From the sequence record NC_073061.1: DNA of 45,251 nt; one strand, given 5' to 3'. This stretch comes from Escherichia phage vB_EcoS-101114BS4. Shown here piece by piece: positions 27,669-43,238 of this stretch. The translations under genes were made by a program, and so were the position numbers. How positions within the stretch are numbered: the stretch's first letter is position 1; each line of letters begins with the position of its first letter. Below the pieces are notes generated by a model, which did not search any database, was not told the DNA's origin, and worked only from the letters and a program-made list of their open reading frames with translations.

Positions 27669-27690
27669 GGGGCCATACGGCCCCTTTTTT
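27669..27690. terminator. Terminator (bidirectional) between the fibre gene and the end of the leftward operon
   Basis: ggggcc-atac-ggcccc hairpin followed by tttttt. Confidence 0.75.
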
Positions 27691-28264
27691 AGTTTGAGTT
27701 TTCCCAGTCCATTTTGCGCCGTACTAACGGGCTTTCGTAATATTCCTTGCCCTCCACTTCCACCAGAGGCCAGTCGTTGACAATCACGTATGGTTCCGCA
27801 ATATCCTCAATCACGCCGTGTGCGCTATGTTGCCCGAACGATACGCCCACCAGGATAACACCGGCAACCCGACGGGTGAGATACTCGCGAGCGCAACGCG
27901 CCTCTACCAGTCCGCGACGGATGCCGCTGGTGGCTTTGACCTCGTAGGTCCAGACGGCATCAATCATGTGCTCACGGAAGTCGGGGCCGGACTTAACCTT
28001 GCGTTTACCGACCATGATAATATCGCCGCGGTCGATAGTATTGGCGCTAAACAGGCCGGTACGCATAAGCAAGCCTTGCGGGATACAACTACGCCCGCCT
28101 GCCTGCCCTTCAAGGTACATGCCAGCAAACATCTCGCCCAGCACACCGACAAGTCGGCTTTGCTTGCACGCGTCAGACTTTAATCGCCACTGGTCAAACT
28201 CGACGCTCGCCAACATTGCCGCTATGTGGAATTGTTTACCGGTTATTTCGTATTCGCCGTACAT
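27689..28264 (-). CDS. Hypothetical protein, possible PD-(D/E)xK-type nuclease
   Basis: 191 aa; segment GPDF...IDAVWTYEVK is compatible with a PD-(D/E)xK core but is weak evidence. Confidence 0.45.
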   Translation of the reverse strand: MYGEYEITGKQFHIAAMLASVEFDQWRLKSDACKQSRLVGVLGEMFAGMYLEGQAGGRSCIPQGLLMRTGLFSANTIDRGDIIMVGKRKVKSGPDFREHMIDAVWTYEVKATSGIRRGLVEARCAREYLTRRVAGVILVGVSFGQHSAHGVIEDIAEPYVIVNDWPLVEVEGKEYYESPLVRRKMDWENSN

Positions 28265-28900: not shown

Positions 28901-28950
28901 GATGTTTTCCTTTTAGTGGGGGCCGGATTGCCCCGACGCGTTAACTATAG

Positions 28951-29652: not shown

Positions 29653-30118
29653 GTAGTTCTCTCTCGCTCATTATTTCAATTTGTGCGCTGCCGTTTGGCG
29701 GCGCTTCATCAAATATTATCAATTGCTGGCACTTGTTATTGCTCGGCCCAACTTCGCCGGTCACAGCATGGATGAATCGCACACGCCAGTCCAGAAGAAT
29801 TATCATATTGGCAGTCTTCCGGGCCAGCTTCGCCCACTTCGTTGACGTGTCCTGATTCAGTAGCATGACAGTACGGCGTCCGTGCGCAGCGCACTCGACC
29901 CACGGCAGCGGATCGGAGTACGGCGGATTGCACCACTTCCACCCTTTCAACTCTGACCAGTCCGCCTCAAGCGCGCTATGCTCCGCCGTGAAGTAGCGCG
30001 GTAGCAGGTGATTGGTGTCGCTTGCCGCCATATCGTAACGGAATCGGTATTTCTTACGAAGCGGTTTAAATAAAGCTGGCGGCGTACGCCAGCTATCTTT
30101 TTGCTCACTCTTCGTCAT
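29633..30118 (-). CDS. DNA N6-adenine methyltransferase, phage Dam-like
   Basis: WCNPPYS (motif IV N-PP-Y) and upstream WRTPPALFKPL, about 160 aa, consistent with the short phage Dam family; start chosen at the ATG at 30118. Confidence 0.6.
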   Translation of the reverse strand: MTKSEQKDSWRTPPALFKPLRKKYRFRYDMAASDTNHLLPRYFTAEHSALEADWSELKGWKWCNPPYSDPLPWVECAAHGRRTVMLLNQDTSTKWAKLARKTANMIILLDWRVRFIHAVTGEVGPSNNKCQQLIIFDEAPPNGSAQIEIMSERELHEYLSR

Positions 30119-30569
30119 TCTGCGGGTCCAGTGCGTATAGGGCAATCTTTTCGTATTTGCCGACTATGCGATGCACGCGCTTTGCGTCCTCTTCACTACG
30201 TGGGCGCGCATCCGGGTAGTAGCTACCCGTCTGAGTATTGTGCCACGCCACAAGCACCAAATCTTTACGATCAACCTTAGACTGTCTACCTTTAGGTCGC
30301 ACGTACTCCTCCGCACGTTTGCAATGTTCCCGCAGCCCTTCGGCAGTGATGCGGTTTAGCGCAACGCTGGTTGTGTATCCGGTGCGCTGCATAATCCCCA
30401 TCAATTCGAAAAGCAGTTCGAAGCGTTCCTCTAACTCCCGGCGCACTTTCTTCTCTCCTTCATATAGCGCCTGGTTGGTGTCCGCCAGCGCGTTCGCGCG
30501 TTCGGCCTGTTCACGGGCTTCGAGGCATTGCGCGGCCCAGTATGCTTTTTCTTCTTGTAAAATTTTCAT
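30105..30569 (-). CDS. Hypothetical coiled-coil protein
   Basis: ATG at 30569 (MKILQEEKAYWAAQ...) with GGAG RBS; the GTG at 30611 lies inside the terminator hairpin and is rejected. Confidence 0.55.
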   Translation of the reverse strand: MKILQEEKAYWAAQCLEAREQAERANALADTNQALYEGEKKVRRELEERFELLFELMGIMQRTGYTTSVALNRITAEGLREHCKRAEEYVRPKGRQSKVDRKDLVLVAWHNTQTGSYYPDARPRSEEDAKRVHRIVGKYEKIALYALDPQNDEE

Positions 30570-30588
30570 CGTGTTGTCTCCAGGTATT

Positions 30589-30613
30589 AAAAAGGGCGTC
30601 CAACCGGACACCC
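30589..30613 (-). terminator. Internal intrinsic terminator in the leftward operon
   Basis: On the minus strand: gggugucc-gguu-ggacgccc hairpin (one G-U pair) followed by uuuuu. Confidence 0.55.
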
Positions 30614-30623
30614 TTAAGATAAT

Positions 30624-30648
30624 GCAACCAATCTAATTACGCAACCAA
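30624..30648. promoter_or_regulatory. Pair of direct GCAACCAAT motifs
   Basis: GCAACCAA at 30624 and 30641 (17-bp spacing) between the stop of gene 30650..30973 and the internal terminator. Confidence 0.5.
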
Positions 30649-30649
30649 T

Positions 30650-30973
30650 TTATTCATAAAAATTCGGGTCGCGCGCTACATCTACCAGATAAAGGTTGCT
30701 CATTCGGTTGCCGTAGTGCCCTGGCGTGCGCTGGCGACACACAACTGCGAAGCCTGGAGGGATTGTATTGCCGGTTTCGATAATCCACGCCACGCGCGCG
30801 CCAGACAGCTTCTTGCCGTTGCATTCGATACGCGTACCGCCATCGGCAGTGTTAAGGTTGCCAATCTTGCAGCCGGTGGACTTCAGACGGATGACGCCGG
30901 TCTTACTGTCGTAGGTGAATAGTTGGTTAGTCATTGCGACCGAAAAATCGATGGCTTCGAATGTAGTGTTCAT
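30650..30973 (-). CDS. Hypothetical protein
   Basis: 107-aa ORF with GAGGA RBS; a C-terminal H..N..N pattern is too weak to call an HNH nuclease. Confidence 0.5.
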   Translation of the reverse strand: MNTTFEAIDFSVAMTNQLFTYDSKTGVIRLKSTGCKIGNLNTADGGTRIECNGKKLSGARVAWIIETGNTIPPGFAVVCRQRTPGHYGNRMSNLYLVDVARDPNFYE

Positions 30974-31665
30974 TTTAAATTTTCCTCATTGACTGCTATT
31001 GCGAAGCCGCGCGGAGTGAGCGACCGGATTAATTTGGTGCGGGCAGATTTGCCACCGAGGCGACTATACTGCTTCGAGTACCCTTTTTCAACGAATACCG
31101 GCTTTTTCTCCGGCATACGAAAGCCATTGCCAGTCCATAAACAGGTCAGCTTTGGGTATGAATCGCGGTCGTTGATGTATTCCGGGAACAACGGATGTAC
31201 GTCATCCTCCGGCAGATAGCCGCCATATTCCCACGGATCAAACGAGTGGTCTGGCTTGCGCCACTGGGTGGATAGCACACTGCGCGGATTCTCAATCATA
31301 TATGGCACTTCAAAGAAGTCACCCAGGTAAGCGGCAATCTTCGCGGTGCGCACTGCCTTAAGCTGAAAGGCGGGGTCTTTCGCACGCTTGCACGGGAAAG
31401 CTGGCGCACCGCTCACCGCCAGATCCGTACACGGCGGAAACGCGTAGATAATATCCGGCGTGCCGAAATCGCCATTCATCGCGCGGTCCACGAAGTCCAG
31501 ATCGATAAACTCGTTACGATAGCGGATACCGCGACCATAAATCCGGTAGTCAAGGTAAGACCCGTGATCGGCTTCCGAGTAGTTGAAACAGTAGCATTTA
31601 TGCCCCATCTCGGCAGCGCGCTCTATCATCAAGCCGCTGCCGTCAAATAATGACCAGATAATCAC
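30970..31665 (-). CDS. Compact C5-cytosine methyltransferase-like protein
   Basis: GTG start with AGAAGG RBS; motif I SLFDGSG, motif IV FPPCTD (catalytic Cys), motif VI-like ENP; only 231 aa, leaving little room for a target-recognition domain. Confidence 0.55.
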   Translation of the reverse strand: MIIWSLFDGSGLMIERAAEMGHKCYCFNYSEADHGSYLDYRIYGRGIRYRNEFIDLDFVDRAMNGDFGTPDIIYAFPPCTDLAVSGAPAFPCKRAKDPAFQLKAVRTAKIAAYLGDFFEVPYMIENPRSVLSTQWRKPDHSFDPWEYGGYLPEDDVHPLFPEYINDRDSYPKLTCLWTGNGFRMPEKKPVFVEKGYSKQYSRLGGKSARTKLIRSLTPRGFAIAVNEENLK

Positions 31666-33086
31666 TTGCGCACCTTCTTAGCTTTCATGTATTCCATCAA
31701 GTCGTCCTGGATGTCGCGCTTACCATCGCGGCGGTCCGCCACCAGTTCGTCCAGTGTCCCGCGTGCCTGGATAATATAGACGAATACCGGTCGAGGGTGC
31801 CCGGCTTGCATCTGGCGAACTGGCCCGATACGCTCCACGATCTGCGCAAAGTGCTCATAGTTCCACGTATCCGAGAAGATAGCCAGGTGATGACCGCCGT
31901 CCTGCAAGTTAAGGCCGTGACCAGCCGATGCCGGGTGTGCGAACATGATGGGAATCTCGCCCCTGTTCCACGCTTCCATATCCTTATTGCCCTGCTTACC
32001 CTTACCCATCGCAACGCCGTGGGGAAACTTCTTCTTCAGACGTGCCAGGTCGTGCTTGTACTGGTACGCAACGAGCAACGGCGCTCCGTTCAACTCCTCT
32101 ACGATACTTTCCAGCGCGTCCAGCTTGGCGTCGTGAATCTTCTCCCACTCGTCGGTCCGCTCTCCGTCTTCGTCCACCTTATACACGGCACCGGATGCAA
32201 GCTGAAGGCACTTGATGGTCTTAGCCGCAGCGTTCGCCGCTTCCACTGTTCCGCTTTCCAGTTCGGCAAATAGCTCACTCTCAAACTGGTCATAAATCTT
32301 GCGGGCTTTCTTCGGCAGGTCCACGACAACCGGCGTGTAGATTGGCTTGTCACATCCGAAGTATTCAGCCGCGTCCACGGTAAGGGATACATCGGACAGG
32401 CGCTGTTGGATCTCCTTCTCGGAGTTCTTTAGCGGGGCGTGCTGCATAGTGAAGCTGCCTGGCTTAACAGGCTTGCTAATAAACCAGCGATCGGTGAATG
32501 CCTTATAGCTACTGCCGAGTCGTTCGCCACCGTCGACAAACCACGTCTGGCCCCATAGGTCTTTCAGTCCGTTTGGTGCTGGTGTGCCGGTCAGGTTAAT
32601 CCAGCGCCTGACGTGCTTATGTGCGATCGCCGCCAGTGCGCGTGCGCGCTTACTGCCTTGCTTGCTGCGATAGCCTTTCAGCTTAGTGGATTCATCGGCA
32701 ACAACGACCGTAAAAGGCCACTCGTCGCCGCAATACTCGACAAGCCACTCAACAACATCGTAGTTGACACAAACCACGTTAGCGTTGCTCTCAAGCGCCG
32801 CAATGCGGTCCTTCTCTGGCCCGGTGCCGTCTACTACCAGCAGGGCGGGGAATCTCCATTTTTCTTGTTCCGGGGGCCACGTACCGGACGCAACGCGCAG
32901 CGGGGCCAGCACCAGTACGCGGTCCTCCTGGTTGGACAGGATGCCAGTCTGGAACATTTTGTTTAGCGCCCACATAGTCGCGCCGGTTTTACCGGACCCC
33001 ATTGTCGCCCAAATATTGCAGCGCTCATGCTTGAGAATAAACGCGGTTATCAATTTCTGATATTCGCGACGTCGGAATCGTGCCAT
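31662..33086 (-). CDS. SNF2/DEAD-like ATP-dependent helicase
   Basis: Walker A ATMGSGKTG, DExx box VVADESTKL, NLTGTPAPN; 474 aa from the ATG at 33086. Confidence 0.75.
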   Translation of the reverse strand: MARFRRREYQKLITAFILKHERCNIWATMGSGKTGATMWALNKMFQTGILSNQEDRVLVLAPLRVASGTWPPEQEKWRFPALLVVDGTGPEKDRIAALESNANVVCVNYDVVEWLVEYCGDEWPFTVVVADESTKLKGYRSKQGSKRARALAAIAHKHVRRWINLTGTPAPNGLKDLWGQTWFVDGGERLGSSYKAFTDRWFISKPVKPGSFTMQHAPLKNSEKEIQQRLSDVSLTVDAAEYFGCDKPIYTPVVVDLPKKARKIYDQFESELFAELESGTVEAANAAAKTIKCLQLASGAVYKVDEDGERTDEWEKIHDAKLDALESIVEELNGAPLLVAYQYKHDLARLKKKFPHGVAMGKGKQGNKDMEAWNRGEIPIMFAHPASAGHGLNLQDGGHHLAIFSDTWNYEHFAQIVERIGPVRQMQAGHPRPVFVYIIQARGTLDELVADRRDGKRDIQDDLMEYMKAKKVRK

Positions 33087-33090
33087 ATCT

Positions 33091-33309
33091 TTATTCCGCC
33101 TTTTTCCAGACTTCGGTTTCACTGTTCCAATTCCTCTTTGTGGCGTCGTAGTTGGTGGCGTGTCCAATGTGCACACCGGTCGCGCGGAAGCTCTTAAACT
33201 TCTGCCAGCACACTGTCAACGGCAGCGGGTAATTCATGCCTGCGATAAACCATACGCGATCGCCAGGTTTGCACTCGCCCAGCTTGGTGAGTCGGTAATG
33301 TTCTTTCAT
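33091..33309 (-). CDS. Hypothetical protein
   Basis: About 72 aa; start at the third in-frame Met for RBS spacing. Confidence 0.45.
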   Translation of the reverse strand: MKEHYRLTKLGECKPGDRVWFIAGMNYPLPLTVCWQKFKSFRATGVHIGHATNYDATKRNWNSETEVWKKAE

Positions 33310-33351
33310 CGTCATGCCTCCAAAAATGGCGGGACAAGCCCGCCGTATTGA

Positions 33352-33525
33352 TTATTCTTGTTCTGCGCGATAGCGGCGCTGCCGTTCACGTTCTTTCTTA
33401 TTGCGGCACGATTTGCACTCGGCCCGATGCCCGTCTGGACTGCGCGCAGTCTTTCCGGTGTATTTGTGGAACTGGGATAGCGGCTTGATGCAGCCGCAGT
33501 TACTGCAACGTTTTTCTTCAATCAT
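33352..33525 (-). CDS. Zinc-ribbon protein
   Basis: 57 aa with CSNCGC...CKSC (two CxxC pairs); GAGGA RBS. Confidence 0.5.
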   Translation of the reverse strand: MIEEKRCSNCGCIKPLSQFHKYTGKTARSPDGHRAECKSCRNKKERERQRRYRAEQE

Positions 33526-33565
33526 TTCTAAAATCCTCGATAGGGCTAACCGGCACACTATACCG

Positions 33566-33844
33566 CTACGCGACCAATTCAGCAACCAATAAATCGCAGT
33601 CGGCTATGTTGTCAATAACGCGAACGTCAGCACCGCGGCGGGCCATTCGCTCATGTTCTAGCACCTGGTGCGGCTTCGGTTTTCCGCCGGGGCGCTTCAC
33701 TTCGACGAATACTATGATGCCGTTGATGATAATAATCAGGTCGGGCGCACCTGCGCGCCCCTCCCATGCCAGTTTACGGCAGAATCCGCCGACCTCTTTC
33801 ACCCGTCGCATCAGGTGACTTTGTATCTTGCCTTCGGGTGTCAT
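33566..33844 (-). CDS. VRR-NUC domain nuclease
   Basis: APDLIIIINGIIVFVEVKRPGGK carries the PD-(D/E)xK signature in the VRR-NUC arrangement; 92 aa. Confidence 0.7.
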   Translation of the reverse strand: MTPEGKIQSHLMRRVKEVGGFCRKLAWEGRAGAPDLIIIINGIIVFVEVKRPGGKPKPHQVLEHERMARRGADVRVIDNIADCDLLVAELVA

Positions 33845-34032
33845 TTGGTTTGCAACTCCACGTTACGCAGACGGAGGTCTACCGGTATGTCCGATCGCCC
33901 GGTTAGCGCCAGCGCCAGGTTTTCAGGCGTGACAAGTGCCGTGATGGTCTTGCCACGTTCCAGTCTAAGGACGATGCGAATCTCGTCATCGTCCGTCGCG
34001 CCAGCGCGCATTATGCTTAATTCTGCTTTCAT
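33841..34032 (-). CDS. Hypothetical protein
   Basis: 63 aa from the ATG at 34032 (MKAELSIMRAG...) with AGGAAG RBS. Confidence 0.45.
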   Translation of the reverse strand: MKAELSIMRAGATDDDEIRIVLRLERGKTITALVTPENLALALTGRSDIPVDLRLRNVELQTK

Positions 34033-34036
34033 AATC

Positions 34037-36328
34037 TTACTTCCTATACCGATACATGATGTCGCCTTCGGCGGCAAGTGGGAAACCTTTCGCCCATATA
34101 GGCAGGTCACACATCAGCGCGCAAAGCTCCTCGGTCGTGTAATCGTCGGTGTCCGGCACTTCGGTGATCAATTCATCGTGCACTGACAGGACGATTTCAT
34201 AGCCCGCAGCTTCAACACCAGGCATGGACCATGCGAGAATATCGCGGCACAACGCCTGTACGATGTTCTCCGTAAGTTTGCCGCCGTAGGTATACTGGAA
34301 TCCCCACTGGCGCGTCGTCTGATTCTCGCCCTGATATTTGATGCGGGTACTGGTGCGCTTCTTGCCGGTGTCTTCGTCAATCTCGGTAGTGACAGACAGC
34401 GCGATTCCGGGGTAGCTCATGATTCGCCCTGACGGCAACTCAACCTTCAGCCACCAGCCCGCGGCGTTCGGGTCGTCGCGTTCCTCGTCAAAGGTGGGGT
34501 CGTGCTTCGCCTTCGTGCGCACAATCTTGAGCGCTTTCTTGCCATCCGGGCGAACGTTCGCGCCAGCCCAGTATGCCTTACCTGGATTGCGTATCGCACA
34601 TAACACCGCCTCCTCAAGCTCGGCCCAAAAGGCTACGGTCTTCGGGTGAGATTCACGCCACATACGTTTGATCGCGTCGCAGGTCAACCACACGTTTTTA
34701 GGCAGTATGTAAGTCGGGCGCTCGTCTTTCTTGCCGGGCTTCGGCGGGCGCTTCGCTTCGTTGATGCGGGCAAACTCATAACCGCGTTTAGCCGCCGCCC
34801 AAATATGATCGGGGAATGTTCCCTTCATGACGTCAGCCATTGCGTACAGGTCGAGGCCCAGGTTTTTAGCAAACTGCAAGAACGCCGCGACGCCGCCACC
34901 ATAGCCCAGTCCCAATTCACACGCCTTACCAATCTGGCGTAGGTCTTTGCGGTTGGCTTTGATGTAGTCCGGGTCAAGGCCAAACATCTTACCGGCAGTT
35001 TCACAATAGATATCGCGTCCGGCCTTAAACACCATAAGCGCGGTTTTCTCGCCAGCGATCCAGGCAAGGCCACGCCCTTCCACGTTGGAGTAGTCCGCTA
35101 CAACAAACTTCTTGCCATTAGCCGGGATAATGCACCCGCGAACGGTCGAGGCGGTTAGCTTCGATATGTCATACGCCCAGTGCGCGGTCCCGCGTAACAG
35201 GGAGTTGATGCCGTTGGTGAGCATGTGCGACCGTACCCAAAACGAGACGTCGCTCTCACCTTCGCGGCGCTTAATCTTCCCTTCGTGGTCATCACTGTAC
35301 TCGCCACGTGCCAGGTTTTGAGGCTGAAAGCCTTTACCGGCCCAGCGTAGTGTGCGCTTTGCCCCACCATACTGAAGACAACCACGGCGGCGACCATCGG
35401 CAGAAAGACCATTGACGAGCGGATTGTATTTAGTCGATGCCGTTGATGACGCGCCGAGGCGCATTTCAATAAGCACTTTGCCCTCGTCGGGGAAGTCTGG
35501 ATCTTCCAGCAAGTCATTCAGCGTGGATTTCTGCGCGTTGTGAATGGTGAACGCCGGGGCAATATCACGCAGGATTGGCAGGAAGTCATTACCGGTCAGT
35601 TTACCGCCGAACAGTTCCCAGGCTTCTTCCTTCAATTCTTCTTTGTGCACCTGCACCGCCTTGATCGCGGCGTTCGCCAGGTCAACGTCCACATAGAAGC
35701 CACGGTCGTTAATCAACTGGTCGATACGCAGGATTTCATCTTCCTTTGGTGAGTTGCCCCAGTCCGGTATTCGCCAGTAGACTTCACGCATTGCGATAAT
35801 ATCTAGCGCGGCATAGCGCAGGAATTTAGCCCATTCTTCAGGGTGAGTCTCGCGCGTGTAGCGGCGGATTTTGTAGGTCTTAGGGGTCGGCTTACAAAAT
35901 CGCTTAATCAGCGCCTTGCCTGCCTTATCCTTCGCGTGCTCTGCGTCAACGCCCAGCACCTGGCATTGCATATCGAGGCCACCCGGCAGCGCGTGACGAA
36001 AGGCCATAATCATCGTATCTTCGATCTGGCTTACCGGCAGGTCGATGCCCCACTTTTCACGGATAACCAAGCGGTCAAACAGGAGGCCGTTAGCCATCAC
36101 TATTTTTGCTTTCTTGCGGGTTACCTGGCGTAGCGCCTTGCGCAGTTCACGCGGCATCGTGGGGGATTCAGTGGCGTCCCATGTCTGCACGCGGCCCTCG
36201 TCGATGGCGTAGGTGCAAATCATAATCTCGGTGGATGGGTGTTCTGCATAGGCATACGCACCTGCTTTCTTCAGGTCCACCCCGCTATATGTCTCGGTGT
36301 CAAGAAACAGGCGTTCGAAGTCTTTCAT
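34037..36328 (-). CDS. DNA polymerase I (family A) with 3'-5' exonuclease domain
   Basis: Exo motifs LFLDTETYSG, YAALDI; polymerase motifs DYSNVEGRGLAWIAG (A), RQIGKACELGLGYGGG (B), VLSVHDELITEV (C); 763 aa. Confidence 0.9.
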   Translation of the reverse strand: MKDFERLFLDTETYSGVDLKKAGAYAYAEHPSTEIMICTYAIDEGRVQTWDATESPTMPRELRKALRQVTRKKAKIVMANGLLFDRLVIREKWGIDLPVSQIEDTMIMAFRHALPGGLDMQCQVLGVDAEHAKDKAGKALIKRFCKPTPKTYKIRRYTRETHPEEWAKFLRYAALDIIAMREVYWRIPDWGNSPKEDEILRIDQLINDRGFYVDVDLANAAIKAVQVHKEELKEEAWELFGGKLTGNDFLPILRDIAPAFTIHNAQKSTLNDLLEDPDFPDEGKVLIEMRLGASSTASTKYNPLVNGLSADGRRRGCLQYGGAKRTLRWAGKGFQPQNLARGEYSDDHEGKIKRREGESDVSFWVRSHMLTNGINSLLRGTAHWAYDISKLTASTVRGCIIPANGKKFVVADYSNVEGRGLAWIAGEKTALMVFKAGRDIYCETAGKMFGLDPDYIKANRKDLRQIGKACELGLGYGGGVAAFLQFAKNLGLDLYAMADVMKGTFPDHIWAAAKRGYEFARINEAKRPPKPGKKDERPTYILPKNVWLTCDAIKRMWRESHPKTVAFWAELEEAVLCAIRNPGKAYWAGANVRPDGKKALKIVRTKAKHDPTFDEERDDPNAAGWWLKVELPSGRIMSYPGIALSVTTEIDEDTGKKRTSTRIKYQGENQTTRQWGFQYTYGGKLTENIVQALCRDILAWSMPGVEAAGYEIVLSVHDELITEVPDTDDYTTEELCALMCDLPIWAKGFPLAAEGDIMYRYRK

Positions 36329-36495
36329 TGCTTTATCCTCACTACTGCGTCAGCGCTGCCGATCATGGAGAAGATACCATCCGACAAGGCAATCTCTTCG
36401 CCGTTGTTGCGAATCTCGGCAACGGTAAAATACTCGCCCAGCAATTTGGACCATACACGCATTCCGACTTTTACTTCACTGGCTTTAATACGCAT
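36325..36495 (-). CDS. Small hypothetical protein translationally coupled to the polymerase gene
   Basis: About 56 aa (MRIKASEVKVGMRVWSKLLGEYFTVAEIRNNGEE...); its stop overlaps the polymerase ATG (ATGA). Confidence 0.35.
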   Translation of the reverse strand: MRIKASEVKVGMRVWSKLLGEYFTVAEIRNNGEEIALSDGIFSMIGSADAVVRIKQ

Positions 36496-36510
36496 TTTCA
36501 TTGTCCTAAT

Positions 36511-36534
36511 AAAAAGCCCGCAATAAGCGGGCTT
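36511..36534 (-). terminator. Internal intrinsic terminator between the SSB-like and polymerase genes
   Basis: On the minus strand: gcccgc-uuauu-gcgggc hairpin followed by uuuuu. Confidence 0.6.
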
Positions 36535-36552
36535 GAATAGTGGGCTTTGCCC

Positions 36553-37341
36553 TTAACGGCGGCGACGTTTACGTGGTGCTTCGTCTTCGTCGTCGTCGTC
36601 CTCATCTTCGTCATCGCGGGACTTGCGACGCTTGCGAGGTTTTTCGTCTTCCTCGTCTTCGTCATCGTCATCACGACGCTTGGATTTCTTGGACTTGCGC
36701 GGCTTATCATCTTCGTCATCGTCATCACGACGTTTGGACTTCTTAGCCTTGCGCGGTGCTTCATCTTCGTCATCGTCGCCCAGGTCGTCATCGGAACAAG
36801 AAGACCCGCCGCCACCGAAGGAGTCACCATCGTCACGGAAGCGAAGACCCATCAAGCCAGCACCAAGACCTTTACCGTTGGTGTTGTTCCACGCCCAAAT
36901 ATCCAGGGACACGTTGCAATAACAACCGGAATAGATTTCCTGGCCTTCGATCTCGTCGCCGTCGATGGTCAGACCCTGTTCGGTCTGCTTCTCGCCCAGT
37001 GACGTTTGAATGTTAGGCTGTTTGAACGATTTGGCGTTGATGTACAACATGCCTTCGAATTCTTCGGTTACTTCGTCGCGCTCGTCGCCGTCACGAACTG
37101 CGCATTCCTTAGAATCCTGGGCGTAGTGGCGGTCCATCCACTTATCGGCGTTCTTCTCGGATTTCAGCTTATCGGTAAGCACTGCGCGCGCTGCCGCTTC
37201 CACTTTGTCCACCTGCGGATCTTCTTTATCAAGAAGAATCACGGCACGGTATGCCGGTTTTTGTCCATCCTGTTTAGGGGTATCACGTTCCCAAATTTTC
37301 AGGAAGCATACGCGTACATTTTTCAGGTTGACTTTAGCCAT
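36553..37341 (-). CDS. Putative ssDNA-binding protein with a highly charged repetitive C-terminal tail
   Basis: Start MAKVNLKNVRV with GAGGA RBS; position between nuclease and polymerase as in conserved phage replication modules; C-terminal 80 aa are alternating acidic and basic repeats. Confidence 0.45.
   Translation of the reverse strand: MAKVNLKNVRVCFLKIWERDTPKQDGQKPAYRAVILLDKEDPQVDKVEAAARAVLTDKLKSEKNADKWMDRHYAQDSKECAVRDGDERDEVTEEFEGMLYINAKSFKQPNIQTSLGEKQTEQGLTIDGDEIEGQEIYSGCYCNVSLDIWAWNNTNGKGLGAGLMGLRFRDDGDSFGGGGSSCSDDDLGDDDEDEAPRKAKKSKRRDDDDEDDKPRKSKKSKRRDDDDEDEEDEKPRKRRKSRDDEDEDDDDEDEAPRKRRRR
36575..36790 (-). repeat. In-frame tandem repeats encoding the charged tail of the SSB-like protein
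   Basis: About 57-bp unit repeated about three times (...atcttcgtcatcgtcatcacgacg(c/t)ttgga(t/c)ttcttgg...) giving DDDDEDxKPRKxKKSKRR repeats. Confidence 0.75.
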
Positions 37342-37395
37342 TTTCATTTCCTCATTTCGCATGTATCGGGGTTATTGTGAGCCACCCCGTTCGGC

Positions 37396-37419
37396 TTGGT
37401 TGCTAATTTACTTGGTTGC
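37396..37419. promoter_or_regulatory. Pair of direct TTGGTTGC motifs (reverse orientation of GCAACCAA)
   Basis: cttggttgc at 37395-37403 and 37411-37419 in the gap between genes 37430..37672 and 36553..37341. Confidence 0.5.
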
Positions 37420-37429
37420 GCCTAAGCGG

Positions 37430-37672
37430 TCAAGCACTTTTATTAAAAAGATTTCGTGTCACGTAGTTGGTGGCGTTCTCGATCCAGCTTAACGGCGGGC
37501 GGTCGATGTGCTTCTCAACCCAGTCGACGGCGACGTCGCTATATCCGTCGTCCAGCCAGCGGGATGGATGGCGAATCATCCAGGCCAACATTAACACGCC
37601 TTGCACGCAATGCAGGATAAATCCCAGCGCGCCGAGCATAATCATCAATACGAATGCGAATACCTTATTCAT
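37430..37672 (-). CDS. Small membrane protein
   Basis: 80 aa with N-terminal hydrophobic helices (VFAFVLMIMLGALGFILHCVQGVLMLAWMI). Confidence 0.5.
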   Translation of the reverse strand: MNKVFAFVLMIMLGALGFILHCVQGVLMLAWMIRHPSRWLDDGYSDVAVDWVEKHIDRPPLSWIENATNYVTRNLFNKSA

Positions 37673-39095
37673 TGCTTAAGTCCTCGTCAGTAGCTTCAGA
37701 CCACGCGGGGCGCGGGTCGTCGATTGGTGCCAATACCGGTTTAGCCGGTGCGCGCGTGATTTTATCACACAATTTAGCCCACACTTTCGGTTTCTCGTCC
37801 TTCAATACCTTCTCGGCATCGGTAGGACTGAGCAATGTTTCTTTGTACATTACATCGCGCTTGATCCGGGCCTTCGTGAAGATTTCAATCACTTCGCTCT
37901 CATCCGCCCACTTGCGATTACCTTCCTTACCGGCAACCATCTTGAGGCCCAGCGATTCGCCATCACCCGCCATCACCGCCTTGAATACTGCGGACTCGAT
38001 AGCCTTGATGTGCTGACGCATTGCGTCGAGGCCTTCGTATGCATTACGCAGTTCCGCCGCGCTCATAGCGCCTGGTGCCGCCTCCTTTTTGCCACGCTTC
38101 GCACGTCGTGCCGCTTTCCGGGCTTCGCGGGTCATATTGCGGTCGTGGTTGGCGCATTCTTCCTCTGTCGCCACGCTCACGTCGTCGCCCAGGTCTTCGT
38201 CGGTTGCCGTTGGTGGGGTCATCGTGTCGATGGCGGCCTTAGCGCGGGCACTACACTGATCCGCAAATCGGCACCACTGACAGGCGTCAACGCTCGGTCG
38301 GAAGTCGGCACGGGTAAGTCCCTTCTTGCCTCGGGAATACGCGTCCAGTGCCGCGACCGCTCGCTTGGACGCAAACTTAGCGAATATCTCCAGCGCTTCC
38401 ACTGTAATATCCCACTCCGACGCCCCGCCGCAATACGGCTGGAAGATTACCAGGCGAACGGTCGTAATGTCGTACATGGTTTGCAGCTTGCGCAGCAGGC
38501 CCAGCGCGTACAACATAAGCTGTTTGTTTTCTTTCGCCTCGACCTTATGTCGCCCGGTCTTCAGGTCGCCAACAATAAGCATGTACGTGCCGTCGGTCTT
38601 CTTCATGACCATGACCATATCGGCAGTGCCAAACGTCTTCACCCTGTTGCCGTCTATCTCGAAGCCAGGGTGCAAGATGCGGGTGAGATCGGCGCGCATT
38701 TCAAGCTGGACAAACTCCGCCACTTCAAGGAGCGGTCGCCAGTGGTCGATGTACGCGTCACACTGTTTCACCATATCGTCGTTGACCAGTACGCCGCCTT
38801 TCGGTGCTTTCGGGTGCGCCTTTACCGGCCCCTTACCTTCGTTCTCAACGTAACACCCTTTGTACGTCTTCGCGGATAGCTTCTTCTCTCCGGCAATGAT
38901 GCGGTTTAGCACGACTTCTGATACGGTGTGCATACTCGTACCGTTAATCGCAGCTTGCCCGGATTCGTTCGGGATACCTTTTTCGACTACCAGGGCGGCG
39001 GGGCACCCCATCCATTTTTTAGATCCCGATGGCCCGAGTAATGAGTGTTCGGTATTGCTACCGGATTGCGTTTTGCGCTTTGGTTTAATAGCCAT
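37665..39095 (-). CDS. Cas4/RecB-like PD-(D/E)xK exonuclease with iron-sulfur cysteine cluster
   Basis: N-terminal Cys (WMGCPA), IVGDLKTGRHK and QLMLYALGL nuclease motifs, then CQWCRFADQC (CxxCx5C); 476 aa. Confidence 0.6.
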   Translation of the reverse strand: MAIKPKRKTQSGSNTEHSLLGPSGSKKWMGCPAALVVEKGIPNESGQAAINGTSMHTVSEVVLNRIIAGEKKLSAKTYKGCYVENEGKGPVKAHPKAPKGGVLVNDDMVKQCDAYIDHWRPLLEVAEFVQLEMRADLTRILHPGFEIDGNRVKTFGTADMVMVMKKTDGTYMLIVGDLKTGRHKVEAKENKQLMLYALGLLRKLQTMYDITTVRLVIFQPYCGGASEWDITVEALEIFAKFASKRAVAALDAYSRGKKGLTRADFRPSVDACQWCRFADQCSARAKAAIDTMTPPTATDEDLGDDVSVATEEECANHDRNMTREARKAARRAKRGKKEAAPGAMSAAELRNAYEGLDAMRQHIKAIESAVFKAVMAGDGESLGLKMVAGKEGNRKWADESEVIEIFTKARIKRDVMYKETLLSPTDAEKVLKDEKPKVWAKLCDKITRAPAKPVLAPIDDPRPAWSEATDEDLSNE

Positions 39096-39709: not shown

Positions 39710-40228
39710 TTAATCTTCTAATTCGAAATAAGTTTCGACGATTGCTTTTAATTCCTGGTGGAACTCTTCCACGTCGTCATCTTCCAGCTTGGCAACGGAT
39801 TTAATTTCGAATTCTTCCAGCAGGTCGTCAAATTCGTCGTTTGCGTCGTCGTCATCACCGCCAGCAATAATAGCGGCATACTGCTTGATTTCGTCGCGCA
39901 TCTCTTTCAGCGGATCGGCATCTTTCTTGCCTTTACCTTTCGCCGGTGCTTTCTTAGATTTCGCCGGGGCTTCTTCTTCGTCGTCCGCGTCGTCTTCTTC
40001 TACGGCTTCTTTCTTAGCCTTGCCCTTTGCTGGCGCTTTTTTGGTCTTAGCCGGTGCTTCGTCTTCAGCGTCGTCATCTTCGACTACTTCTTCTTTTGCC
40101 TTGCCCTTAGCCGGGGCTTTCTTCGCTTCCTGTTTACCAACGGCAGCGCCAGCAGTTTCATAATGCTTAGCGATGGTTTCCAGTGCTACTACGCCGCGTG
40201 TGATCAGGTTTACGATTTGCTCAAACAT
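39710..40228 (-). CDS. Lys/Ala/Glu-rich repeat protein (histone H1-like composition), first gene of the leftward operon
   Basis: ATG 40228 (MFEQIVNL) with GGAG RBS; repeats EAPAKTKKAPAKGKAKKE; the upstream in-frame ORF extension is treated as 5' leader. Confidence 0.55.
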   Translation of the reverse strand: MFEQIVNLITRGVVALETIAKHYETAGAAVGKQEAKKAPAKGKAKEEVVEDDDAEDEAPAKTKKAPAKGKAKKEAVEEDDADDEEEAPAKSKKAPAKGKGKKDADPLKEMRDEIKQYAAIIAGGDDDDANDEFDDLLEEFEIKSVAKLEDDDVEEFHQELKAIVETYFELED

Positions 40229-40633: not shown

Positions 40634-40963
40634 ATGCATATCAACGACGCTATCGAAATGTTAACTAAGACCGTAAGCGGTGAGACAAGCCGGTCCTGGG
40701 CTTATACCGATGCCGTTGGTGCGGCGTTATTTGAAATCGAACGCCTGCGCAGTGTCGAAAAAGAATTGCGCGCCAAGCTGGAATTACTCAACGGTACGGC
40801 AGCAAGCAAGCTGCAAAAACACAATGAAGAAATGGAAGAATACAAAAAGCAGGTTATCCGTTTACGCGACGAGGGCAAGTCCTGGGCGATGATTGCCGAG
40901 TTGACCGGAATTAATCAGAGCACCGTGCGCTCCTGGGTACGCAATAATAAAACTTCTAAGTAA
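40634..40963 (+). CDS. Putative transcriptional regulator with C-terminal HTH
   Basis: 109 aa; C-terminal SWAMIAELTGINQSTVRSWVRN is HTH-like; first gene of the rightward unit. Confidence 0.5.
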   Translation: MHINDAIEMLTKTVSGETSRSWAYTDAVGAALFEIERLRSVEKELRAKLELLNGTAASKLQKHNEEMEEYKKQVIRLRDEGKSWAMIAELTGINQSTVRSWVRNNKTSK

Positions 40964-40973
40964 GGCAACGGCA

Positions 40974-43238
40974 ATGAGCTTAATTAAATTCGCAGTAACA
41001 AGACCCGCTAAAAAAGGCGAAAAAGCCAGGGCGGAAAACTTCGAGATGACCACTGATGAGTTTTTCGAATTTATCAATGATGCGAAAGAAATCTCCTCGG
41101 TGCACATCAACAAGACTGAAGATAAAGCCGAGTATGCGCGCCGCAAGCGTAAGGCCGATGGCATCGTGGCCTATACCAATGATGGGTTACGCCGCAAGAC
41201 CAGTGCGGTCGACCGCTCGATCCTGTTCTTCGATATTGACCGCACCGACACCCGCACATTACGCCGCTGCCGTAAAGCGTTCACCGACGCTGGTCTGGAG
41301 CATGTATTCCACACCACGACCGGCGACCGTCACCCACTGAAAGGCGGCACACGTTGCGCCCGTTTCCTGGTGCTCACTGACAAGCCTGTACCGGCTGAAG
41401 ACCTGGGCCGCGTCCAGTATGCGCTATTAGACCAACTGGGCCTGTCAGATGTGGACTTCGACGATTGTACGAAAGACACCAACCGCCTTATGTACCTGCC
41501 TCACCAGCAGTCTGTCATAAAGTGCCACTACGGAAAGCGCGCCCGTGTCCGTCGTCTGCTTCGCCTGGCTGACAAGCTGGGAGTGGAGAAAGAGGAAGTG
41601 CGCCGCGAACTGACCCAGGGCGCCGATGGCGTGGCGGACGGCATTCTGGATTGGTGCTTCCAGGCTGGCTTTGAACCACTGTCATCCGGTCGCGGTTATG
41701 AAGTGCCTTGCCCGAACGAGCACCTGCATAGCGGCGGCGGGTCGACGGCTATCATGGTTAAGGATGGCGAGATCCGTTTCAAGTGTATGCACACCGGCAA
41801 CGAATGCTGTTCCGAACTGAATAAACACCAGCACCTGGCGCTGCGTCTGATCGGCATCCCGGACCACTTGAACGTTGAACCGCACAACATGTCACGCAAG
41901 CAAATCGCCGCCATCCTTCCGGGACTGGACGACGAGGAAGTGGAATCATGCTATGAACATATTGTTGATGCGGTCGGCGACGGCGACGAGTACGGCGAAT
42001 GCACCGACGCTGACCTGGACAACGAACCTGTTGCACTATTCAGTAAGCACGACCCGATCATCGAAGGCCTGGTCAACTTCAAATCGACCTGGTATCTTGC
42101 CGGTGAGTCGAACATTGGTAAGTCGTTCTACGTGCTGGGCCAGATGGCGTCCGTATCTGCCGGTATTCCGTTTGGTGGCGCGAAGGTCGTCCAGTCGCAT
42201 TGCTTCTATTTCGACGCGGAAGGTGGCGAAGCCTCCAACCAGCGTAAGGAAGCACTGCAGATTAAATACGAGCACGACCTCGACAAGCTGCACATTATCG
42301 ACCTGCAATCACGCGGCTGGGATATTACCAGCAAGTCAGGCTTGCGCGAGGTTATCAGCTTTATCAACCGCACCGCTAACGGGGAGCCGGTTGGCCTGGT
42401 GGCCTTCGACTCACTCAACCAGACTGTAGCGCTGCGGTCCGCTGATGCCAAACCGTTCGACGAGAACAACGCCAGCGATATGGGCGAAGTGGTCAAGGCG
42501 CTGAAGGCCATTGCGGAAAATACAGGCGGCAGTGCGGGCGTCATCCATCACCCGGCTAAGGGTGCAAACGGCAGCAGATCCCCACGCGGGTCCGGCGCGC
42601 TTCATGGTGCTGTCGATTCTGCGTTCTTCCTGGAACAGCCGGACGATAATCAGCCAGGCCAACTCAACCTGTATCACGAAAAATCCCGTAACGGCATCAA
42701 GCAAGCGCCGCGTGGCTTCGTCCTGCTCAAATGCAAGGTGAAGGTGGATCTCCGTAAGTCCGAGGCGTTCGAAGCCCACCAGTCCACCAGCACCGGTCCG
42801 GACTTCGGCGATGTGGTTGCCGGTTGGGACGTCAAGCCAATTGCATCCACGCCACGCGACGAGACTCTCTACCTCGTACCGGTCGCCCTGGCACCGTTCG
42901 CTGTCGAACAGGCTAAGGCCGCAGGCAAGGCCGCAGTTAAGGAAGAGAACACCGCCGGACCGCGCAACGAAAAAGAGAAGGTGCTTTATGCGGCACTGGA
43001 AAAACTGATGGAAGATAACCCGGACCATACTGGATTCAGTAAATCGGCAATTGTCCGCCAGGCTGGACTCGCGAAAGGCGGAACATCGACGAAGGCAATC
43101 GACGATATGGTGGAGCGCGGCGTGCTCGGTTTTTATACAGATCCACACACCGGGGCCATCTATGGGTCGTCGAATCTGGTCATCAAATCGGATATCCCAA
43201 TCACGCTTTCGGCGACCGATGATGACCTGAAAGATTAA
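40974..43238 (+). CDS. Primase-helicase (primase/polymerase N-domain, zinc-binding region, P-loop helicase)
   Basis: 754 aa; ILFFDIDRTD, cysteine-rich CPNEHLH...FKCMHTGNECC, Walker A GESNIGKS, Walker B-like LVAFDSL. Confidence 0.7.
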   Translation: MSLIKFAVTRPAKKGEKARAENFEMTTDEFFEFINDAKEISSVHINKTEDKAEYARRKRKADGIVAYTNDGLRRKTSAVDRSILFFDIDRTDTRTLRRCRKAFTDAGLEHVFHTTTGDRHPLKGGTRCARFLVLTDKPVPAEDLGRVQYALLDQLGLSDVDFDDCTKDTNRLMYLPHQQSVIKCHYGKRARVRRLLRLADKLGVEKEEVRRELTQGADGVADGILDWCFQAGFEPLSSGRGYEVPCPNEHLHSGGGSTAIMVKDGEIRFKCMHTGNECCSELNKHQHLALRLIGIPDHLNVEPHNMSRKQIAAILPGLDDEEVESCYEHIVDAVGDGDEYGECTDADLDNEPVALFSKHDPIIEGLVNFKSTWYLAGESNIGKSFYVLGQMASVSAGIPFGGAKVVQSHCFYFDAEGGEASNQRKEALQIKYEHDLDKLHIIDLQSRGWDITSKSGLREVISFINRTANGEPVGLVAFDSLNQTVALRSADAKPFDENNASDMGEVVKALKAIAENTGGSAGVIHHPAKGANGSRSPRGSGALHGAVDSAFFLEQPDDNQPGQLNLYHEKSRNGIKQAPRGFVLLKCKVKVDLRKSEAFEAHQSTSTGPDFGDVVAGWDVKPIASTPRDETLYLVPVALAPFAVEQAKAAGKAAVKEENTAGPRNEKEKVLYAALEKLMEDNPDHTGFSKSAIVRQAGLAKGGTSTKAIDDMVERGVLGFYTDPHTGAIYGSSNLVIKSDIPITLSATDDDLKD

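What the first reader, a model, noticed from the sequence alone, without database searches (positions are those of the whole stretch)
31662..39095. Replication module combining a Cas4-like iron-sulfur nuclease, SSB-like protein, family-A polymerase, VRR-NUC nuclease and SNF2-type helicase
This gene set and order resemble a conserved phage replication and recombination module. The Cas4-like protein has the four-cysteine iron-sulfur arrangement (one N-terminal Cys plus CxxCx5C). Three distinct PD-(D/E)xK-type nucleases are predicted in one genome (37665, 33566 and possibly 27689).
Basis: partly seen in the sequence, partly recalled or inferred. Interest (0 to 1): 0.4.

Follow-up and report, generated by a model that had tools for sequence, protein, structure and literature searches.

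The report
Known Dhillonvirus phage replication-recombination gene module
This is the standard DNA replication and recombination gene block of a well-known group of E. coli phages (genus Dhillonvirus), correctly read by the first stage but already annotated and partly studied, so it is ordinary.

Summary
On the minus strand of 31662-39095 lie, in order, five genes. They encode a DUF2800 RecB/Cas4-like PD-(D/E)xK nuclease, an Enc34/T7-gp2.5-type ssDNA-binding protein, a family-A DNA polymerase, a VRR-NUC nuclease and an SNF2-type helicase. Each is supported by profile or solved-structure matches. The nuclease has C31 plus C272-x2-C275-x5-C281. These four cysteines are 98-100% conserved in 151 diverse relatives; its five other cysteines are not. 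The "possible" third nuclease (27689-28264) has no sequence-family match, but its predicted structure matches PD-(D/E)xK nucleases.

None of this is new. The region is 98.5% identical to Escherichia phage vB_EcoS_WFI and matches 159 phage records, many already annotated this way. The same five genes are collinear in phage Chi, Xanthomonas phage AhaSv, Salmonella phage SE1 and a streptococcal prophage. The literature already describes the module. The Dhillonvirus ortholog of the nuclease (Bas14 B14T) triggers retron type IX. The SSB of SECphi4, a phage closely related to the window, triggers Retron-Eco8.

Caveats:
- "Cas4-like" holds by fold and motifs only, not by the Pfam Cas4 family.
- Fe-S versus zinc occupancy cannot be tested here.
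- The helicase probably starts at 33086, not 33176.

Verdict: already known, low interest.

The parts
37665..39095 (-). 476-aa DUF2800 nuclease of the RecB/Cas4/AdnA type. It has a PD-(D/E)xK core (E132, D159, D177-L-K179, Q192xxxY196) and a four-Cys 'staple' (C31, C272, C275, C281). A disordered linker (~295-345) leads to a conserved, folded C-terminal domain (~345-470) of unknown fold. It is the ortholog of Bas14 B14T.
37430..37672 (-). 80-aa hypothetical protein with a hydrophobic N-terminus. Its start overlaps the nuclease stop by 8 nt.
   Evidence: phrog_11211, unknown function; no Pfam match; annotated in relatives.
36553..37362 (-). Enc34/T7 gp2.5-type ssDNA-binding and annealing protein (DUF2815 OB fold, aa ~8-200). 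The usual acidic tail is followed by a ~69-aa extension of alternating acidic and basic repeats that ends in RKRRRR. The start codon is ambiguous: Bas83 annotates the MAKVN start, 21 nt downstream.
   Evidence: Pfam PF10991, 111 bits; phrog_112; PDB 4klk, 4jg2, 5odj; tail alignment; tail composition 30 acidic and 28 basic of 69; 54-nt tandem repeat at 36656-36777.
36514..36534 (-). Terminator-like GC-rich hairpin with a T-run, just after the SSB gene. Probably an attenuator within the operon.
   Evidence: Consensus scan only. The WFI record annotates terminators in this span.
36325..36501 (-). 58-aa hypothetical protein. Its stop overlaps the polymerase start (ATGA).
   Evidence: phrog_10102, unknown function; annotated in relatives.
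34037..36328 (-). 763-aa family-A DNA polymerase with an N-terminal 3'-5' exonuclease-like region: DTE at 10-12, NGLLFD at 80, YAALD at 172. Polymerase motifs A (412), B (464) and C (717) are present. Leu sits at the position of E. coli Pol I Phe762.
   Evidence: Pfam, 59.3 bits; phrog_17; Taq and Klenow alignments; motif scan; weak NCBIfam hit of aa 35-247 to the DpoZ exonuclease region.
33841..34032 (-). 63-aa hypothetical protein between the polymerase and VRR-NUC genes. The longest ORF, to 34110, overlaps the polymerase; relatives annotate the 192-nt version.
   Evidence: ORF list; annotations in Bas83 and Bas15.
33566..33844 (-). 92-aa stand-alone VRR-NUC nuclease (D35, E47-V-K49), probably a dimeric Holliday-junction or branch resolvase.
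   Evidence: PDB 4qbn E 3e-22 and 4qbo E 1e-13; phrog_93 and phrog_5702 'Holliday junction resolvase'; Pfam 22.6 bits, just below cut-off; motifs.
33352..33525 (-). 57-aa zinc-ribbon protein (CxxC ... CxxC), annotated as a Lar-like restriction alleviation protein in Bas83.
   Evidence: phrog_5558; Bas83 annotation; no Pfam match.
33091..33315 (-). 74-aa hypothetical protein immediately upstream of the helicase.
   Evidence: phrog_9291, unknown function.
31662..33086 (-). 474-aa SNF2-type (SF2) helicase/translocase with Walker A GSGKT (30) and a DEST box (131). Its stop overlaps the start of the Dcm-like methyltransferase.
   Evidence: Pfam SNF2-rel_dom, 41.4 bits; phrog_62, 522 bits; PDB Snf2, Rad54-like and 1z63; start codon.
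40634..40963 (+). 109-aa helix-turn-helix protein, divergently transcribed. It is the first gene of the primase-helicase operon (equivalent to HK578 gp45).
   Evidence: Pfam HTH_23 and HTH_28; same arrangement in Chi, AhaSv, SE1 and RcMaeve; HK578 OLD escapers.
40974..43238 (+). 754-aa replicative primase-helicase (AAA_25/RecA-type NTPase at aa 357-531). It lies outside the finding's span but belongs to the replication module.
   Evidence: Pfam AAA_25; phrog_3228 'replicative helicase-primase', 1132 bits; 44% identity to the SE1 gene in the syntenic position.
27689..28264 (-). 191-aa protein restricted to Dhillonvirus, with a predicted PD-(D/E)xK (restriction-endonuclease-like) fold. It is the last gene of the leftward operon and is not part of the conserved module in other phages.

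Best explanation
The window is a Dhillonvirus (HK578-like E. coli siphophage) genome. Positions 31662-39095 are the core of its early and middle leftward operon for DNA replication and recombination.

Shown here: the five proteins belong to the stated families, carry intact catalytic motifs, and keep this order in very distant phages.

Inferred mechanism, by analogy with T7, lambda Red and AddAB/AdnAB:
1. The divergently transcribed HTH protein and primase-helicase (40634-43238) open and prime the DNA.
2. The family-A polymerase, with its proofreading region, synthesises DNA.
3. The gp2.5-type SSB coats single-stranded DNA and anneals complementary strands.
4. The DUF2800 nuclease, stapled by a four-Cys metal site, resects DNA ends 5' to 3' and hands 3' tails to the SSB. 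This supports recombination-dependent replication, concatemer formation and repair of cut genomes.
5. The VRR-NUC dimer resolves Holliday junctions and branches before packaging.
6. The SNF2 ATPase translocates on dsDNA to remodel forks or migrate branches.

The nuclease is dispensable for plaque formation in a close relative, so it is an accessory recombination or repair factor, not a core replisome part.
For: Identity of the phage: 98.5% identity to phage vB_EcoS_WFI, and 159 phage records match, almost all Escherichia or Dhillonvirus. Bas83 and Bas15 annotate the same genes as exonuclease, ssDNA binding and annealing protein, DNA polymerase, endonuclease and DNA helicase.

Families and motifs.

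Nuclease: catalytic residues and the four Cys are invariant in 75-151 diverse relatives. The fold is closest to the end-resection nucleases AdnA, Dna2, AddA/B, RecE and Cas4.

Synteny: the five genes are collinear at 25-69% amino-acid identity in Chi, AhaSv, SE1 and Javan528. The three-gene core (nuclease, SSB, polymerase) is kept in Staphylococcus phi7401PVL and Achromobacter 83-24. 1416 of 50,697 phage records hold a DUF2800 homolog.

Literature:
- The Enc34 replication module is listed as primase, transcription factor, polymerase, VRR-NUC and helicase, and its ORF6 is shown to be an SSB (PMC5686142).
- The 'duf2800-gp2.5-polA module' is described, lacking a separate ssb gene (PMC8093625).
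- Bas14 B14T D177A/K179A abolishes retron IX triggering, and truncation escapers are viable (bioRxiv 10.64898/2026.07.14.737667).
- SECphi4 SSB binds the retron-Eco8 msdDNA (PMC13402713).
- Cas4 and AddB with this Cys pattern are 5'-3' exonucleases (PMC3466216).
Against: No biochemistry exists for any protein of this phage. Polarity of the nuclease, metal content, junction resolution and the SNF2 substrate are all inferred from relatives that share 10-35% identity.

The B14T authors state that its role in the phage life cycle is unknown.

The SSB tail ends in a basic run (RKRRRR), not the acidic terminus that gp2.5 uses to contact its polymerase and helicase. Coupling may therefore differ from T7.

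The conserved C-terminal domain of the nuclease has no known relative, so part of its function is unexplained.
Confidence: 0.85

Rival explanations
1. The four conserved cysteines of the nuclease hold a structural zinc ion, not an iron-sulfur cluster. The protein would then be a 'zinc-stapled' RecB-like nuclease and the iron-sulfur label would be wrong.
Against: The exact spacing C-x(n)-C-x2-C-x5-C is the one used by AddB, Dna2, Exo5 and Cas4. These bind Fe-S clusters (PMC5704561) and are also top structural neighbours. Metal in a structural-genomics crystal can reflect aerobic purification.
Confidence: 0.2
2. The DUF2800 nuclease works mainly against the host or its defences, for example by degrading host DNA or defence nucleic acids. 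On this reading it is not a recombination exonuclease paired with the SSB.
For: It is dispensable for plaque formation in Bas14, and its catalytic activity is what retron IX senses. Against Bas83 its protein sequence is more diverged (92% aa identity) than the polymerase or helicase (99.7-99.8%). That pattern is often seen in arms-race genes.
Against: It is tightly linked to a gp2.5-type annealing protein and a polymerase across phyla, with no separate ssb gene. This is the classic exonuclease plus annealase pairing. Its fold neighbours are end-resection enzymes. Against Bas15 it is not more diverged than its neighbours.
Confidence: 0.12
3. The 191-aa protein (27689-28264) only keeps a PD-(D/E)xK-like fold and is not an active nuclease. 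It could be, for example, a DNA-binding or inhibitor protein. The genome would then have two such nucleases, not three.
Against: A helix Glu (E44), two Asp (D81, D102) and an E108-V-K110 triad are invariant down to 54% identity. They fall on the predicted helix and strands where the motif is expected.
Confidence: 0.3
4. The gene cluster is only a co-transcribed set of unrelated early genes, and its order carries no functional meaning.
For: Small unrelated ORFs, methyltransferases and an HNH gene are interspersed or adjacent. Terminator-like hairpins subdivide the operon.
Against: The same five genes occur in the same order in phages of different families and host phyla, at 22-40% identity.
Confidence: 0.03

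Closest known systems
Replication modules of other Dhillonvirus phages (HK578, vB_EcoS_WFI, TheodorHerzl/Bas14, PaulFeyerabend/Bas15, Haito/Bas83, SECphi4/18)
   Same: Same genes in the same order, at 90-98.5% nucleotide identity. They are already annotated as exonuclease or PD-(D/E)XK nuclease, SSB, DNA polymerase I, VRR-NUC or endonuclease, and DNA helicase. B14T numbering (D177, K179) is identical.
   Different: Only small sequence differences: indels in the nuclease linker (465-476 aa) and in the SSB repeat tail (263-269 aa).
Chi / Enc34 ('Nazgul-like', Casjensviridae) replication module: gp2 primase, gp3 regulator, gp6 exonuclease, gp7 Gp2.5-like SSB, gp8 polymerase, gp9 endonuclease, gp10 helicase
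   Same: Identical architecture, including the divergent regulator plus primase arm. All five window proteins find their counterparts collinearly. Enc34 ORF6 has been shown to be an SSB.
   Different: Only 25-33% amino-acid identity. The Chi SSB ends in a plain acidic tail. The Chi module abuts the terminase genes, whereas here it abuts methyltransferases. The primase-helicase is not detectably similar by tblastn.
duf2800-gp2.5-polA module of Firmicutes phages and prophages (e.g. Staphylococcus phi7401PVL, Streptococcus Javan528)
   Same: The nuclease, SSB and polymerase core is in the same order. Javan528 also has VRR-NUC followed by an SNF2 helicase.
   Different: These are temperate phages. 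The primase lies between the polymerase and VRR-NUC (Javan528), or a VirE-type helicase is used (phi7401PVL). Identity is 22-40%.
Fe-S 'staple' RecB-family nucleases: AddB, AdnA, Dna2, Exo5, Cas4, ACE1
   Same: Same PD-(D/E)xK core with a QxxxY motif and the C...CxxCx5C pattern. They are the best structural neighbours.
   Different: The window protein is stand-alone, with no fused helicase. It has no CRISPR or Argonaute context and gives no hit to the Pfam Cas4 model. It carries an extra conserved C-terminal domain with no known relative.
T7 gp2.5 / gp5 / gp6 / gp3 / gp4 system and lambda Red (Exo + Beta)
   Same: The functional logic matches: a 5'-3' exonuclease with an annealing SSB, a family-A polymerase, a junction-resolving endonuclease and a primase-helicase.
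   Different: The nuclease and resolvase belong to different families (T7 gp6 is FEN-like and gp3 is endonuclease I). T7 has no SNF2 ATPase. The SSB tail here is not purely acidic.

Membership tests
DUF2800 (PF10926) phage RecB-like nucleases | Full-length match to the Pfam model above its gathering score | tested here: met
   226.7 bits against a cut-off of 21, covering model positions 1-368 of 368. 10,095 cluster representatives reach E<=0.001.
RecB/Cas4-type PD-(D/E)xK nucleases | Catalytic E, D, (D/E)xK and QxxxY motifs in place and conserved | tested here: met
   E132, D159, D177, K179, Q192 and Y196 are invariant in 75 sequences and 99-100% conserved in 151. D177A/K179A inactivates the Bas14 ortholog in vivo.
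Fe-S 'staple' nucleases (AddB, Dna2, Exo5, Cas4) | One N-terminal Cys plus C-x2-C-x5-C after the nuclease core | tested here: met
   C31, C272, C275 and C281 are 98-100% conserved, whereas the other five Cys are not.
Fe-S 'staple' nucleases (AddB, Dna2, Exo5, Cas4) | An iron-sulfur cluster is actually bound | not testable with these tools
   Needs purified protein. The zinc-containing relative 3L0A shows that the motif alone is not proof.
Cas4 family proper (Pfam Cas_Cas4, CRISPR-associated or solo Cas4) | Match to the Cas4 sequence model and/or a CRISPR-cas neighbourhood | tested here: not met
Enc34 / T7 gp2.5-type SSB (PF10991, DUF2815) | Match to the family model and to solved members | tested here: met
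   111.1 bits against a cut-off of 26. PDB 4klk E 5e-13 and 5odj E 5e-10.
Enc34 / T7 gp2.5-type SSB (PF10991, DUF2815) | An acidic segment forms the extreme C-terminus | tested here: not met
   The acidic stretch (SDDDLGDDDEDE) is present where the Chi and Staphylococcus proteins end. It is followed by 69 residues of alternating acidic and basic repeats ending in RKRRRR.
Family A DNA polymerases | Pfam DNA_pol_A above cut-off, and motifs A (DxSxxE), B (RxxxKxxxxxxxYG) and C (HDE) | tested here: met
   59.3 bits against 34.3. Motifs at 412, 464 and 717, aligned to Taq D610, R659/K663/Y671 and D785/E786.
Family A DNA polymerases | 3'-5' proofreading domain (Exo I DxE, Exo II NxxxFD, Exo III YxxxD) | tested here: inconclusive
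   The sequence patterns are present at 10, 80 and 172, and there is a weak hit to the DpoZ N-terminal region (E 8.5e-6). No Pfam exonuclease model is matched.
VRR-NUC (PF08774) | Match to the family, and a catalytic D ... ExK | tested here: met
   Pfam scores 22.6 bits, just under the 23.8 cut-off. The full-length match to the solved VRR-NUC proteins 4qbn (E 3e-22) and 4qbo (E 1e-13) settles it. D35 and E47-V-K49 are present.
VRR-NUC (PF08774) | Dimeric Holliday-junction resolvase activity, as in the bacterial and viral members | not testable with these tools
   Inferred from relatives only (from my own knowledge of Pennell et al. 2014 on 4qbn and 4qbo, not read here).
SNF2-type SF2 ATPases | SNF2-related N-lobe with Walker A and DExx, plus a helicase C-lobe | tested here: met
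   SNF2-rel_dom 41.4 bits against 24.9. Helicase_C is only 18.8 against 23.5. However, 1z63 (SsoRad54-like) aligns over residues 29-462, and phrog_62 scores 522 bits. GSGKT at 30 and DEST at 131.
PD-(D/E)xK fold (191-aa protein, 27689-28264) | Restriction-endonuclease-like fold with conserved acidic and Lys residues | tested here: met
Conserved phage module (DUF2800, DUF2815, PolA, VRR-NUC, SNF2) | The same genes in the same order in unrelated phages | tested here: met
   Collinear in Chi, AhaSv, SE1 and Javan528, and partial in phi7401PVL and 83-24 (annotations). The sample was 9 loci, not a census.

The most novel reading that the evidence does not exclude
The DUF2800 nuclease is a two-domain protein. 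After a disordered linker it carries a C-terminal domain of about 125 aa (aa ~345-470). The model predicts this domain with pLDDT 92-98, and K385, G389, G392, R394, W396, P424, D460 and R462 are at least 90% conserved across 151 relatives. It has no detectable relative among solved structures. [quoted passage not shown] This domain could dock the nuclease onto the SSB or replisome. In Dhillonviruses the SSB has an unusual acid/base repeat tail, which might be its partner. The domain could also be what defence systems read. That would define a new exonuclease-annealase coupling element common to more than a thousand phages.
Probability: 0.25. Interest if true: 0.35.

Novelty: already known. Interest (0 to 1): 0.1.

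Why it matters
It matters little as a discovery. The module is a textbook-style phage replication and recombination cassette that is already annotated in near-identical genomes and described in several papers.

Its practical relevance is that two of its proteins are known alarm signals for bacterial retron defences. The nuclease triggers retron type IX and the SSB triggers Retron-Eco8. A correct annotation therefore helps predict which defences this phage will trip.

Three things remain open. The first is the metal in the four-Cys site. The second is the role of the conserved C-terminal domain of the nuclease. The third is the function of the genus-specific 191-aa nuclease-fold protein.

Tried and rejected
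3. The search for related loci with the 75-sequence DUF2800 alignment failed because no conserved stretch was long enough. I used tblastn against annotated phage records instead.
4. NCBIfam gave no equivalog-level hit for any module protein. PADLOC gave only generic SNF2 and PD-(D/E)xK similarities (DpdE, ZorD, DrmD, DruK), far too weak for membership. A defence-system reading was rejected.
5. A literature search combining VRR-NUC, SNF2, polymerase, phage and Cas4 returned nothing. Narrower searches worked.
6. I considered whether the long GTG-start helicase ORF (504 aa) was real. I rejected it in favour of the ATG at 33086. That start sits 4 nt after the upstream stop with a purine-rich stretch before it, and relatives annotate it.
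7. Model coordinates are not exposed to scripts. The Cys-Cys geometry of the predicted metal site could not be measured.

Full report
**What is there**

The window is a Dhillonvirus-type E. coli siphophage genome.
- Region 31662-39095 is 98.5% identical over its full length to Escherichia phage vB_EcoS_WFI. It matches 159 phage records, nearly all Escherichia or Dhillonvirus.
- GC skew and the ORF map show one long leftward (minus-strand) operon from about 40400 down to 27689.
- Gene ends are tightly packed or overlapping. Examples are nuclease stop with next start, the small ORF with the polymerase start, the upstream ORF with VRR-NUC, and helicase stop with the methyltransferase start.
- A strong sigma-70-like site lies at 40454-40425. 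Three terminator-like hairpins lie within the operon at 39571-39552, 36534-36514 and 33344-33328. These are consensus matches only.

**Checking the five assignments**

- Nuclease, 37665-39095: Pfam DUF2800 226.7 bits over the whole model, plus PDDEXK_1; phrog_69 'exonuclease'.
- SSB, 36553-37362: Enc34_ssDNA-bd 111 bits. It matches the solved DUF2815 and Enc34 SSB structures 4klk, 4jg2 and 5odj.
- Polymerase, 34037-36328: DNA_pol_A 59.3 bits. It aligns to Taq and Klenow through motifs A and B, and again at motif C. DYSNVE is at 412, RQIGKACELGLGYG at 464 and HDE at 717. Exo I, II and III-like patterns are at 10, 80 and 172.
- VRR-NUC, 33566-33844: Pfam scores 22.6 bits, just below the 23.8 cut-off. 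The protein aligns end to end with the solved VRR-NUC nucleases 4qbn (E 3e-22) and 4qbo (E 1e-13), and it carries D35 and E47-V-K49.
- Helicase, 31662-33176: SNF2-rel_dom 41.4 bits; phrog_62 522 bits; Snf2 and Rad54-like structures; GSGKT and DEST boxes. The real start is most likely the ATG at 33086 (474 aa). It sits 4 nt after the stop of the upstream 74-aa gene, and relatives annotate it.

**The four-cysteine claim**

- The nuclease has nine cysteines. C31 and C272-QW-C275-RFADQ-C281 form the stated pattern.
- I aligned it with 150 cluster representatives from a search of 1.84 billion proteins, at roughly 30-70% identity (10,095 hits at E<=0.001).
- C31, C272, C275 and C281 are conserved in 98-100% of them, and the other five cysteines are not.
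- E132, D159, D177, K179, Q192 and Y196 are invariant.
- An AlphaFold model built on 75 sequences has mean pLDDT 90.5.
- So 'Cas4-like' is right for fold and motifs. The Pfam Cas4 model is not matched, however, and the closest folds are end-resection nucleases.
- The cysteine pattern is that of the AddB/Cas4 'iron staple' (PMC3466216; PMC5704561).
- The same paper shows that the four-Cys relative 3L0A holds zinc. Iron-sulfur content therefore stays an inference.

**The third nuclease**

- The 191-aa product of 27689-28264 has no Pfam, NCBIfam or PDB sequence match. It has only seven homologs, and the named and long-contig ones are Dhillonvirus-like.
- Its model has pLDDT 82.
- E44 lies on a helix. 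D81 and D102 lie at strand starts. E108-V-K110 lies on a strand. All are invariant.
Activity is untested.
- This protein is absent from the syntenic loci of other phage groups, so it is not part of the conserved module.

**The module is conserved and already described**

- tblastn of the window proteins against fetched loci finds nuclease, SSB, polymerase, VRR-NUC and SNF2 helicase in the same order in four phages:
  - phage Chi, at 25-33% identity;
  - Xanthomonas AhaSv, at 26-41%;
  - Salmonella SE1, at 37-69%;
  - Streptococcus Javan528, at 24-40%, with a primase inserted.
- The nuclease, SSB and polymerase core is also kept in Staphylococcus phi7401PVL and Achromobacter 83-24.
- In Chi, AhaSv, SE1 and RcMaeve a regulator plus primase arm is transcribed divergently. 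The same holds here, with the HTH protein at 40634-40963 and the primase-helicase at 40974-43238.
- 1416 of 50,697 phage records encode a DUF2800 homolog.
- Published descriptions:
  - The Enc34 paper lists this module and proves the DUF2815 protein is an SSB (PMC5686142).
  - A 2021 survey names the 'duf2800-gp2.5-polA module' and notes the lack of a separate ssb gene (PMC8093625).
  - DUF2800 was classed as RecB-like in 2012 (PMC3424549).

**Experimental knowledge on close relatives**

- The window nuclease gene is 92% identical in nucleotides, and equal in length, to that of TheodorHerzl/Bas14.
- A July 2026 preprint shows that Bas14_0045 (B14T) triggers the type IX retron Sen3. D177A/K179A abolishes triggering. 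Escapers with truncations are viable. The nuclease is therefore active in vivo and non-essential for plaque formation.
- The SSB of SECphi4 binds the Retron-Eco8 msdDNA (PMC13402713). SECphi4's nuclease gene is 91.7% identical in nucleotides to the window's.
- HK578 escapers of the P2 OLD protein map to the primase-helicase, to its operon promoter, and to a small gene next to the exonuclease and SSB genes.

**Most likely mechanism**

This section is inferred, apart from family membership and motifs.
1. The primase-helicase unwinds and primes the DNA.
2. The family-A polymerase copies it.
3. The gp2.5-type SSB protects and anneals single strands.
4. The stapled RecB-like nuclease resects ends 5' to 3' to feed the SSB. 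This drives recombination-dependent replication, concatemer formation and break repair.
5. The VRR-NUC dimer resolves junctions before packaging.
6. The SNF2 ATPase remodels forks or migrates branches.

**Differences worth noting**

- The SSB keeps the acidic stretch where the Chi and Staphylococcus proteins end. It then continues for 69 residues of acid/base repeats ending in RKRRRR. These are encoded by a 54-nt tandem repeat. SE1 has a shorter version that ends in acidic residues.
- The nuclease has a well-predicted, conserved C-terminal domain with no known relative. [quoted passage not shown]

**Verdict**

Interest is low.

Noticed in passing
window 29428-29652 (-): A 74-aa ORF lies between the Dam methyltransferase (29633-30145) and the HAD phosphatase/PNK-like gene (28961-29431). 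Its size and position match Ksap1, the Dhillonvirus protein that directly activates the NLR-like defence protein KpAvs2 (PMC11564622). Sequence homology to SECphi18 Ksap1 was not tested.
   Followed up: partly
window 36553-36760 (-), tandem repeat at 36656-36777: The SSB C-terminus is a 69-aa polyampholyte: 30 acidic and 28 basic residues in blocks such as DDDDEDDKPRKSKKSKRR, ending in RKRRRR. It is built from a 54-nt tandem repeat and is appended after the canonical acidic tail. Salmonella phage SE1 has a shorter version that ends in acidic residues. The function is unknown.
   Followed up: partly
window 39710-40408 (-), tandem repeat at 39916-40123: The first gene of the leftward operon encodes a 232-aa protein (phrog_3127, unknown function). 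It has 29-aa repeats that alternate KKAPAKGKAK-type basic blocks with acidic blocks, encoded by an 87-nt tandem repeat. The best sigma-70-like site in the region (40454-40425, 11 of 12 matches) lies just upstream, and a strong terminator-like hairpin (39571-39552) lies downstream.
   Followed up: no
window 37665-38060 (-), nuclease aa ~345-470: The C-terminal third of the DUF2800 nuclease is predicted as a folded domain (pLDDT 92-98). It is conserved (K385, G389, G392, R394, W396, P424, D460, R462 at 90% or more) and has no PDB relative by sequence, profile or whole-model fold search. [quoted passage not shown]
   Followed up: partly
window 34037-36328 (-), polymerase aa 464-477: Motif B reads RQIGKACELGLGYG. 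The residue aligned with E. coli Pol I Phe762 / Taq Phe667 is therefore Leu. About 240 residues separate motifs B and C, against about 115 in Taq, which suggests an insertion in the fingers or palm region.
   Followed up: no
window 30105-30611 (-): This 168-aa protein falls in phrog_10530, labelled 'DNA ligase', and Bas83 annotates it that way. It has no Pfam or NCBIfam support and is far too small for a ligase, so the label looks unreliable.
   Followed up: partly
window 28307-31665 (-): Downstream of the helicase the operon continues with five more genes: a Dcm-like methyltransferase (30970-31665, FPPC motif, phrog_757), an HNH or homing endonuclease (30650-30973, per relatives), a Dam methyltransferase (29633-30145, Pfam Dam 126 bits), a HAD phosphatase (28961-29431) and a DUF6378 protein (28307-28900).
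   Followed up: partly
L001 (Haito_Bas83) compared with window 37665-39095: Against Bas83 the nuclease is clearly more diverged (92.2% aa) than the flanking polymerase (99.7%), helicase (99.8%) and primase-helicase (98.8%). Against Bas15 all are similar, at 94-97%. This looks like local mosaicism or recombination at the nuclease gene, which is a known retron trigger.
   Followed up: no
window 26136-27662 (+): The adjacent tail fibre protein (508 aa) contains a run of near-identical heptad-like repeats (TNTIKTQTNQIKTDTQAI...) and ends convergently, 27 nt from the 191-aa nuclease-fold gene.
   Followed up: no
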